A program made the translations under genes and the position numbers. 64,000 bases of DNA from the human T2T-CHM13v2.0 reference genome, Homo sapiens, in the NCBI RefSeq assembly GCF_009914755.1, contig NC_060925.1; one strand, given 5' to 3'. Under the pieces are notes generated by a model. It was not told the origin of the DNA. It did not search any database and worked only from the letters and a program-made list of their open reading frames with translations. Shown here one piece after another: positions 41,974-42,294 of this stretch (its first letter is position 1; each line of letters starts with the position of its first letter).

Positions 41974-42294
41974 ACAATGAGATCACATGGACACAGGAAG
42001 GGGAATATCACACTCTGGGGACTGTGGTGGGGTCGGGGGAGGGGGGAGGGATAGCATTGGGAGATATACCTAATGCTAGATGACACATTAGTGGGTGCAG
42101 TGCACCAGCATGGCACATGTATACATATGTAACTAACCTGCACAATGTGCACATGTACCCTAAAACTTAGAGTATAATAAAAAAAAAAAATAAAATAAAA
42201 AAAAAAAAATAAAAAAAAAAGAATTGTAAAAAAAAAAATTATAAATAAAACAAAGAAGAATATGTGAGAGGAAAAAAAAAAAAAAAAAAAAAAA
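40694..42294 (+). mobile_element. 5'-truncated L1HS Ta-1 insertion with 3' transduction
   Basis: Ta diagnostics ACA (42085-42087) and G (42170). Ta-1 diagnostics T41691 and G41694 (cccaaaTgaGtat). Perfect 18-bp TSD aaaaaaaatggttcatgc (40676-40693 / 42287-42304). TTTT/AAAA endonuclease site. Confidence 0.97.
42221..42271 (+). other. 3'-transduced non-L1 sequence with its own poly(A) signal
   Basis: gaattgt-A11-ttataaataaaacaaagaagaatatgtgagagg lies between the L1 tail and the terminal A run, inside the TSDs. AATAAA at 42244-42249. Confidence 0.88.

What the first reader, a model, noticed from the sequence alone, without database searches (positions are those of the whole stretch)
42179..42294. 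3' transduction that identifies the source L1
Seen: after the L1 end the tail reads A12-T-A4-T-A13-T-A10, then 51 bp of non-L1 sequence (gaattgt A11 ttataaataaaacaaagaagaatatgtgagagg), then A23, all inside the TSDs. An AATAAA at 42244-42249 is followed by 22 nt before the final poly-A, which is canonical spacing. Established: L1 transcripts can read through their weak poly(A) signal and mobilise downstream flank. Inference: the patterned first tail is the parent's genomic tail, and the tag is the parent's 3' flank. It should therefore point to a recently active full-length source element and its sibling insertions.
Basis: partly seen in the sequence, partly recalled or inferred. Interest (0 to 1): 0.85.

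Follow-up and report, generated by a model that had tools for sequence, protein, structure and literature searches.

The report
L1 copy carrying its parent's flank
A young, shortened L1 jumping gene in this window carries 51 bases copied from beside a full-length L1 on chromosome 11, which ties it to an already catalogued, still active L1 family; this is a clean but ordinary example of a textbook process.

Summary
Window 40694-42178 is a 5'-truncated L1HS-Ta copy. It is followed by a 42-nt A-rich tail, a 51-nt non-L1 tag and A23, all inside an 18-nt target-site duplication.

The 33-nt core of the tag occurs at only 5 places in the window's own assembly.
- **chr11:95.44 Mb:** the tag lies directly behind a full-length L1 with both reading frames open. 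It starts with that element's own duplication and runs on into unique DNA, so this is where the tag originated.
- **chr1:83.89 Mb and chrX:75.63 Mb:** siblings that carry a longer 75-79-nt version.
- **chr14:6.28 Mb:** a second-generation copy derived from chr1:83.89.

A 2025 population catalogue lists the window insertion as a polymorphic "solo" L1, so the tag was missed there. A 2026 colorectal-cancer study lists the chr11 and chr1:83.89 elements as active sources that share one tag.

Two points are not supported. The T-interrupted first tail is private to this copy. The tag also does not name a single parent, because chr11 and chr1:83.89 fit equally well. This is an ordinary new member of a known family.

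The parts
40676..40693 (+). 5' copy of the target-site duplication, A8TGGTTCATGC (18 nt)
   Evidence: Read; direct repeat D2. It is 1611 nt from the 3' copy, which equals the length of the deletion allele in the population catalogue.
40694..42178 (+). 5'-truncated L1 body (about 1485 nt: end of ORF2 plus the 3' UTR), L1HS-Ta, Ta-1 type
   Evidence: It differs at 3 of 1484 positions (99.8% identity) from each of the chr11, chr1:83.89 and chrX copies. ACA at 42083-42085 and T/G at 41691/41694 fit the Ta and Ta-1 criteria quoted. I placed these sites by motif; their spacing is 2 nt off that paper's numbering.
42179..42220 (+). First A-rich tail (A12-T-A4-T-A13-T-A10), at the place of the parent's genomic poly(A) tail
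   Evidence: The homologous tails are pure A30 (chr11), A31 (chr1:83.89 and chr14) and A26 (chrX).
42221..42271 (+). Transduced tag, 51 nt (52 if the next A was templated), identical to the 3' flank of the chr11:95.44 Mb L1
   Evidence: No differences from chr11 across the tag in the alignment; the 33-mer core is exact at 5 places in the genome.
42221..42228 (+). GAATTGTA, a copy of the chr11 element's own target-site duplication at the start of the tag
   Evidence: On chr11, AAGAATTGTA lies both directly before the L1 5' end and directly after its poly(A).
42244..42249 (+). AATAAA poly(A) signal inside the tag, 22-23 nt before the cleavage site
   Evidence: A non-reference sibling ends at the same place.
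42272..42294 (+). Second poly(A), A23, added to the read-through transcript. Its last 8 A cannot be told apart from the A8 of the duplication.
42287..42304 (+). 3' copy of the target-site duplication

Best explanation
This is a partnered L1 3' transduction. A full-length L1HS-Ta element carrying this tag was transcribed past its own weak poly(A) signal and through its genomic A-tail into the flank. The transcript was cleaved 22-23 nt after an AATAAA in that flank and polyadenylated. L1 endonuclease and reverse transcriptase then copied it into a TTTT/AAAA site at chr1:82.50 Mb (CHM13), with reverse transcription stopping about 1.5 kb into the L1.

Shown: the tag is the native flank of the full-length L1 at chr11:95,443,397-95,449,413 (+). 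That element has both reading frames open and is probably the catalogued source '11q21-2'. Its family in this assembly has four offspring, and the window copy uses the nearer of two cleavage sites.

Inferred: the transcript and the steps from read-through to integration.

Not resolved: the immediate parent. It could be the chr11 element itself, its full-length daughter at chr1:83.89 Mb ('1p31.1-1'), or an unsampled tag-bearing copy. I put these at roughly 0.55, 0.3 and 0.15.
For: **Anatomy.** The order is L1 3' end, A-tail, 51-nt non-L1 tag, A23, all within an 18-nt duplication at an endonuclease-type site.

**Origin of the tag.**
- The 33-mer occurs at 5 of 5 places exactly, with 0 for the control pattern.
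- On chr11 the tag follows a full-length L1 of about 6.0 kb with open frames of 338 aa and 1275 aa.
- The tag begins with that element's own duplication, AAGAATTGTA, and continues into unique DNA.
- A population catalogue lists a 6056-bp deletion allele at chr11:95,443,396. That is the L1, its tail and one duplication copy, so the empty chr11 allele keeps the tag.

**Siblings, each with its own flanks.**
- chr1:83.89 Mb (-): full length, duplication AGAAAAACAAATCA.
- chrX:75.63 Mb: 3.4 kb long, duplication AATAATAGTCATTCG(A).
- Both carry 75-79 nt of the same flank followed by poly(A).
- chr14:6.28 Mb holds 134 nt of L1, then A31, the tag, A30, then about 515 nt of the chr1:83.89 flank and a poly(A).

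**Cleavage site.** A non-reference insertion, chr1-17569674-INS, ends at the same ...GAGAGG/A(n) site as the window copy.

**The insertion is polymorphic.** It is listed as chr1-82500678-DEL, 1611 bp.

**Catalogued sources.** Source L1s at hg38 chr11:95,436,216-95,442,246 (+) and chr1:84,052,389-84,058,406 (-) have identical tag-based counts. Their calls are labelled '11q21-2-1p31.1-1'.
Against: Nothing argues against the transduction itself. These points weaken a single-parent reading.
- At window 41265 the copy has C, the commoner state genome-wide (765 exact 36-mers against 184 with T). The chr11, chr1:83.89 and chrX copies all have T. No sequenced candidate parent matches the window copy exactly.
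- At 41742 the window shares a derived A with chr1:83.89 only.
- The three T in the first tail are absent from every other family member seen.
- I equated the CHM13 elements with the published hg38 sources by chromosome, strand, size, position offset (7.2 kb and 159.6 kb) and the shared-tag relation, not by sequence. The 33-mer gave 0 hits in that paper's readable supplement.
Confidence: 0.95

Rival explanations
1. The immediate parent was the full-length daughter element at chr1:83.89 Mb (-), which carries the same tag inside its own 3' end. Its transcript would have ended at the AATAAA in the inherited tag instead of running on to its later poly(A) sites.
For: The element is full length with both frames open. 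It was active in the germline, as the chr14:6.28 Mb copy carries about 515 nt of its private flank. It shares the derived A at window 41742 with the window copy. It is listed as a somatically active source: 39 insertions in PCAWG and 7 in Tubio et al., as quoted.
Against: It has T at 41265 and a private G at 41881, where the window has C and A. This route needs the same number of changes as the chr11 route: three, all CpG transitions. That count is my own, so the data cannot decide between them.
Confidence: 0.3
2. The parent was a tag-bearing full-length copy, or a chr11 allele, that is not in this assembly. It had C at the site matching 41265 and perhaps a T-interrupted tail.
For: No sequenced candidate matches at 41265 or in the tail. 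The family has non-reference members, such as chr1-17569674-INS. All three family members found in the catalogue are polymorphic.
Against: No such copy was seen. The differences are few and lie at fast-mutating CpG sites or in an unstable A-tract, so later mutation explains them as well.
Confidence: 0.15
3. It is not a transduction. The tag would have arisen by segmental duplication, gene conversion, a later small insertion into the poly(A) tail, or a chance match in AT-rich sequence.
For: The tag is AT-rich and lies between A-runs.
Against: There are 51 of 51 identical bases to the chr11 flank, 0 matches for the control pattern, and 0 expected in the shuffled window. Each of the five places has different outer flanks, and the four with readable junctions have their own duplications. 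The tag ends 22-23 nt after an AATAAA and is followed by poly(A). The whole unit is missing in the empty allele.
Confidence: 0.01

Closest known systems
Partnered L1 3' transduction. The original descriptions (Moran 1999; Goodier 2000; Pickeral 2000) are recalled, not read here. The mechanism as summarised in PMC13009371 was read in passages.
   Same: There is read-through of the L1 poly(A) signal, two poly(A) tracts around a unique tag, a poly(A) signal 10-30 nt before the end, and duplications around the whole unit. The tag maps behind a full-length source.
   Different: Nothing differs in kind. At 51 nt the tag is in the short class, which that paper says short-read callers tend to score as solo L1.
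Source pair '11q21-2-1p31.1-1' in PMC13009371, Supplementary Data S1 and S2 (read)
   Same: It comprises two full-length reference L1s, on chr11 (+) near 95.44 Mb and on chr1 (-) near 84.05 Mb in hg38. They share one tag and identical tag-based counts: 241 somatic calls, 90 samples, 40 germline. The CHM13 pair found here has the same chromosomes, strands, sizes and shared-tag relation.
   Different: Identity rests on position and on that relation, not on sequence. The paper's tag letters were not visible to me. The window copy itself is not mentioned in any part I could read.
'Proxy elements' of PMC13009371 (passages): truncated reference L1s that carry a transduced tag from their source
   Same: The window copy is a truncated L1 with L1 sequence plus the family tag. 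It could therefore attract alignments of new insertions from this family.
   Different: Proxies are defined there by the source being absent from the reference. Here both candidate sources are listed as present in hg38.
Spliced 5' transduction at source 8q21.11 (PMC12350158, passages). This applies only to the side finding at chr1:83.89 Mb.
   Same: An upstream promoter drives a transcript whose exons are spliced towards a full-length L1, and the exons are carried to the new site.
   Different: In that case the acceptors lie inside the L1. Here the acceptor lies 7 nt before the L1, and the two exons come from an endogenous retrovirus about 126 kb upstream.

Membership tests
Partnered L1 3' transduction | L1 3' end, then A-tail, then non-L1 sequence, then a second poly(A) | tested here: met
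   a 42-nt tail, a 51-nt tag, then A23.
Partnered L1 3' transduction | The whole unit is bracketed by target-site duplications at an L1 endonuclease-type site | tested here: met
   The 18-nt duplication lies at 40676-40693 and 42287-42304. The nick site on the other strand reads TTTT/AAAA.
Partnered L1 3' transduction | The tag maps directly 3' of a full-length L1 elsewhere and continues there as genomic DNA | tested here: met
   At chr11:95.44 Mb the tag follows the A30 tail of the L1 and runs on into unique sequence.
Partnered L1 3' transduction | The source's own duplication lies between its poly(A) and the rest of the tag | tested here: met
   AAGAATTGTA lies on both sides of the chr11 L1.
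Partnered L1 3' transduction | A poly(A) signal lies 10-30 nt before the new poly(A) | tested here: met
   AATAAA at 42244-42249 is 22-23 nt before the A-run. A second insertion ends at the same site.
Partnered L1 3' transduction | The empty allele at the insertion site lacks the tag | tested here: met
   Taken from a catalogue, not from sequence I aligned. chr1-82500678-DEL, 1611 bp, equals the spacing between the duplications.
Partnered L1 3' transduction | The source is capable of retrotransposition | tested here: inconclusive
   Both frames are open in the chr11 and chr1:83.89 elements, and offspring exist. Activity was not assayed here. Published somatic activity depends on the hg38-to-CHM13 match.
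L1HS Ta / Ta-1 subfamily | ACA at 5929-5931 defines Ta. T and G at 5535/5538 define Ta-1. Criteria quoted from PMC12350158 methods. | tested here: met
   ACA lies at 42083-42085 and T/G at 41691/41694. Older L1 copies show G at the first site and ACG, ATG or GCG at the triplet in 3 of 4. I placed the sites by motif; their spacing is 392 nt rather than 394 nt.
Published '11q21-2-1p31.1-1' transduction family | It carries the same tag as the one used for those sources | tested here: inconclusive
   Chromosome, strand, size and the two-element shared-tag relation all match. The paper's tag letters were not seen, and the 33-mer gave 0 hits in its readable supplement.

The most novel reading that the evidence does not exclude
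The window copy may be the earliest surviving offspring of the chr11 source. On this reading it preserves an older state of that source: C at 41265 and perhaps a T-interrupted tail.

The source's heritable success may also owe something to expression that does not depend on the L1 promoter. The full-length daughter at chr1:83.89 Mb was copied from a transcript that began in an endogenous retrovirus about 126 kb upstream. From memory this looks like HERV-H, a family active in pluripotent cells. The transcript was spliced through two exons to an acceptor 7 nt before the L1. The chr11 L1 would then lie inside a retrovirus-driven transcription unit that delivers full-length L1 RNA at the stage when heritable insertions are made.
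Probability: 0.25. Interest if true: 0.5.

Novelty: new member of a known kind. Interest (0 to 1): 0.3.

Why it matters
The mechanism is textbook and the candidate sources are already catalogued as active, so nothing new about how L1 works follows from this.

The practical value is threefold.
1. An insertion scored as "solo" in a 2025 long-read population catalogue in fact carries a 51-nt tag. This adds one germline offspring to that family. A non-reference insertion in the same table, also scored solo, adds a second.
2. The case shows concretely why short tags undercount source activity.
3. A tag can be shared by a source and its full-length daughter. "Tag equals source" is then ambiguous without variants inside the L1 body.

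The insertion lies outside the only annotated gene of the window (a lncRNA ending at 36678), and the hub table lists no genes within 100 kb. No effect on a gene is expected.

Tried and rejected
- **Full-text searches for a named chr11 source.**
  - '11q21' + 'source element' + 'transduction' + 'LINE-1' gave 0 papers.
  - '11q21' + 'retrotransposition' + 'transduction' gave 1 paper. Its 11q21 element lies at hg18 chr11:92.5 Mb, so it is a different L1.
  - '1p31.1' + 'source element' + 'transduction' + 'LINE-1' gave 2 papers. They name 1p31.1-12 and 1p31.1-III without coordinates in the passages I saw, so they decide nothing.
- **Source catalogue of PMC12350158 (Supplementary Table 19).** It is not in the held text, because the file was cut when stored. 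'11q21', '1p31.1' and 'Xq13' gave 0 hits. I therefore cannot say whether that study names the chr11 element as a source.
- **chrX and chr14 siblings in that paper's Table 18.** I found neither in the held part. With a cut file this is not evidence that they are fixed.
- **Transduction end coordinates near hg38 chr11:95,442,2xx-6xx in the colorectal-cancer supplement.** There were no hits beyond the S1 row. Phrase searches for 11q21-2 rows in sheets S4 and S8 found nothing.
- **Choosing the parent by parsimony.** Both routes need three CpG changes, so I did not decide.
- **Polarity at 41265 from older L1 copies.** They were uninformative, showing T, T and G. I used genome-wide 36-mer counts instead. 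The tool describes its repeat counts as lower bounds.
- **chr14 copy.** Its duplication could not be resolved, because it sits in the A/T-rich end of an older L1.

Full report
**1. The observation**

- The L1 ends at window 42178.
- The first tail, 42179-42220, reads A12-T-A4-T-A13-T-A10.
- The 51-nt non-L1 tag, 42221-42271, is GAATTGT + A11 + 33 nt.
- AATAAA lies at 42244-42249, with 22 nt between it and the final A23 (42272-42294).
- The unit lies inside an 18-nt target-site duplication, A8TGGTTCATGC, at 40676-40693 and 42287-42304. The integration site reads TTTT/AAAA on the nicked strand.
- The L1 part begins at 40694, so it is 5'-truncated to about 1.5 kb.
- It carries ACA at 42083-42085 and T/G at 41691/41694. 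By the criteria quoted in the methods of PMC12350158 this is Ta, subtype Ta-1. I placed these sites by motif; their spacing is 2 nt off that paper's numbering.

**2. Where the tag comes from**

The 33-nt core occurs once in the window, against 0 expected. In the window's own 3.1-Gb assembly it occurs at 5 places with up to 2 mismatches allowed. All 5 are exact, and the reversed control pattern gave 0. In all five it follows a nearly identical L1 3' end.

At chr11:95.44 Mb (+) the L1 is full length, starting at chr11:95,443,397, with open frames of 338 and 1275 codons. AAGAATTGTA lies directly before its 5' end and again directly after its A30 tail. The tag therefore begins with that element's own duplication. 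It continues past the window's cleavage point into unique DNA (...GAGAGG AGCTGAATGTGCCCCATAAAGCCTAAAA TATTTAATCTC...). That is the signature of the locus where the tag is native.

Supplementary Table 18 of PMC12350158 (1,019 long-read genomes, CHM13 coordinates) supports this independently. It lists chr11-95443396-DEL of 6056 bp, typed as L1 "solo". That length is the L1, its tail and one duplication copy, so the empty chr11 allele keeps the tag.

**3. The family in this assembly**

| Place | L1 | First tail | Transduced flank | Final A-run | Duplication |
|---|---|---|---|---|---|
| window, chr1:82.50 Mb (+) | about 1.5 kb | 42 nt with 3 T | 51-52 nt | A23 | A8TGGTTCATGC |
| chr1:83.89 Mb (-) | full length, both frames open | A31 | 75-79 nt | A30 | AGAAAAACAAATCA |
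| chrX:75.63 Mb (+) | 3.4 kb | A26 | 75-79 nt | A39 | AATAATAGTCATTCG(A) |
| chr14:6.28 Mb (+) | 134 nt | A31 | tag, A30, then about 515 nt of the chr1:83.89 flank | about A30 | not resolved |

The chr14 copy ends 13 nt after an AATAAA in the chr1:83.89 flank. It matches chr1:83.89 at 785 of 785 bases, which makes it a second-generation, serial transduction. It also shows that the chr1:83.89 daughter has itself been active in the germline.

Two cleavage sites are used in the chr11 flank. The nearer one, after GAGAGG, is used by the window copy. Table 18 also lists a non-reference insertion, chr1-17569674-INS (412 bp, typed "solo"), whose tail column reads A25 + tag + A-run. It ends at that same nearer site.

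**4. The window insertion is polymorphic, and its tag was missed**

Table 18 lists chr1-82500678-DEL of 1611 bp, L1, "solo", TRUN+FOR+POLYA. The length equals the spacing of the two duplication copies, so the empty allele lacks the tag. The chr1:83.89 element appears in the same table as "partnered" (6706 bp).

**5. Which element was the immediate parent?**

Over 1484 nt the window copy differs at 3 sites from each of the chr11, chr1:83.89 and chrX copies.

| Window site | Window | chr11 | chr1:83.89 | chrX | Note |
|---|---|---|---|---|---|
| 41265 | C | T | T | T | CpG site; C is commoner genome-wide (765 against 184 exact 36-mers) |
| 41553 | G | A | A | A | private to the window |
| 41742 | A | G | A | G | CpG site; G in 4 of 4 older L1 copies |
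| 41881 | A | A | G | A | private to chr1:83.89 |

With chr11 as parent, the window copy would predate the C-to-T change in the source, and 41742 would have changed twice in parallel. With chr1:83.89 as parent, 41742 is shared by descent and 41265 changed twice in parallel. Each route needs three CpG transitions, so the data do not decide. The tag fixes the ultimate origin, chr11, but not the immediate parent.

**6. The patterned tail**

The three T are private to the window copy. The chr11 source has A30, the other three copies have A26-A31, and the non-reference sibling has A25, all pure A. Three changes in 42 nt (7%), against 3 in 1484 nt (0.2%) in the body, is too many for ordinary point mutation. 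Three explanations remain:
- a different source allele or an earlier state of the source;
- reverse-transcriptase errors on the internal A-tract;
- the fast evolution known for A-tails (this last point is recalled, not tested).

I could not tell these apart (note).

**7. What is already in print**

I read Supplementary Data S1 and S2 of PMC13009371 (nanopore study of short L1 transductions in colorectal cancer).

| Source | hg38 position | Status | Nanopore somatic | Tag-based | Other |
|---|---|---|---|---|---|
| 11q21-2 | chr11:95,436,216-95,442,246 (+) | in reference, germline, fixed in their nanopore samples | 2 | 241 somatic, 90 samples, 40 germline | xTea 2; PCAWG 0; Tubio et al. 0 |
| 1p31.1-1 | chr1:84,052,389-84,058,406 (-) | in reference, germline, fixed | 1 | identical figures | xTea 18; PCAWG 39; Tubio et al. 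7 |

Tag-based calls are labelled "11q21-2-1p31.1-1", so the authors treat the two elements as sharing one tag. The chromosomes, strands, sizes and this relation match what I found in CHM13, with offsets of 7.2 kb and 159.6 kb. I regard the identity as very likely, but I did not see the paper's tag letters (0 hits for the 33-mer). Its PDF supplements could not be read.

The same paper reports that 71% of nanopore-detected transductions were under 100 bp and were often scored as solo by short-read callers (passages). The window copy fits that pattern. I found no statement in print linking the chr1:82.50 Mb insertion to this family (searches; supplements). Supplementary Table 19 of PMC12350158 was out of reach, so this is not proof of absence.

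**8. Side finding**

The chr1:83.89 daughter carries 531 extra nt at its 5' end, inside its duplication.
- Bases 1-175 match chr11:95,316,977-95,317,151 at 100%. The donor there reads G|GTAAGC.
- Bases 176-531 match chr11:95,318,823-95,319,178 at 355 of 356. This exon is bounded by AG| and |GTAAGT.
- The join to the L1 uses an acceptor...TTTTTAAAG|AATTGTA, 7 nt before the chr11 L1.

So this full-length copy was made from a spliced transcript that began at least 126 kb upstream of the source. The start lies in a member of a retrovirus-like repeat family of about 1000 copies (1047 and 2130 first-look candidates; the next-best matches are 98% for the first exon and 96% for the second). From memory it looks like HERV-H. 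I did not test that name.

**9. Verdict**

The finding is real, precisely described and correctly interpreted at its core. It is a standard partnered 3' transduction in a known, active L1 family. What is new is limited to three points:
- an insertion catalogued as "solo" now has its lineage assigned;
- a source and its daughter share the tag;
- the source has a spliced 5' transduction.

Interest is modest.

Noticed in passing
L008 6853-7383 (-), i.e. chr1:83,898,853-83,899,383; sources at chr11:95,316,977-95,317,152 and 95,318,823-95,319,178: The full-length sibling at chr1:83.89 Mb carries a 531-nt spliced 5' transduction. Two exons of a retrovirus-like repeat about 126 kb upstream of the chr11 source, with canonical GT-AG borders, are joined to an acceptor 7 nt before the L1. 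The name HERV-H is recalled, not tested.
   Followed up: yes
L010 4369-5180, i.e. chr14:6,284,368-6,285,179: This is a second-generation (serial) transduction: 134 nt of L1, A31, the chr11 tag, A30, about 515 nt of the chr1:83.89 flank, then a poly(A) 13 nt after an AATAAA. It is inserted in the 3' end of an older L1 at chr14:6.28 Mb. Its target-site duplication is not resolved.
   Followed up: partly
PMC12350158 Supplementary Table 18, row chr1-17569674-INS (CHM13 chr1:17.57 Mb; not in this assembly): A non-reference 412-bp L1 typed 'solo' has a tail column reading A25 + the same 51-nt tag + A-run. It is a further family member that was missed as a transduction, and it ends at the same cleavage site as the window copy.
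   Followed up: partly
window 42179-42220: The first tail has 3 T in 42 nt and is 11-16 nt longer than the pure-A tails of the source and the siblings in this assembly, while the L1 body differs at only 0.2%. The cause is unresolved.
   Followed up: partly
window 40438-40487: About 190 nt upstream of the insertion lies a short palindromic element (...GGTACAAAAGTAATGGCGGTTTTTGCCATTACTTTTGCACCAACC...). From memory it looks like a MADE1/Hsmar1-derived miniature transposon. It lies inside a stretch masked as repeat.
   Followed up: no
window 48679-49402 (-): An older L1 3' fragment, 93% identical to the young copy. I used it only as an outgroup.
   Followed up: partly
PMC13009371 Supplementary Data S1, row 11q21-2: The row gives 2 nanopore somatic insertions but 6 somatically active samples (10.7%). 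The two figures cannot both be right. I quote them as printed.
   Followed up: no
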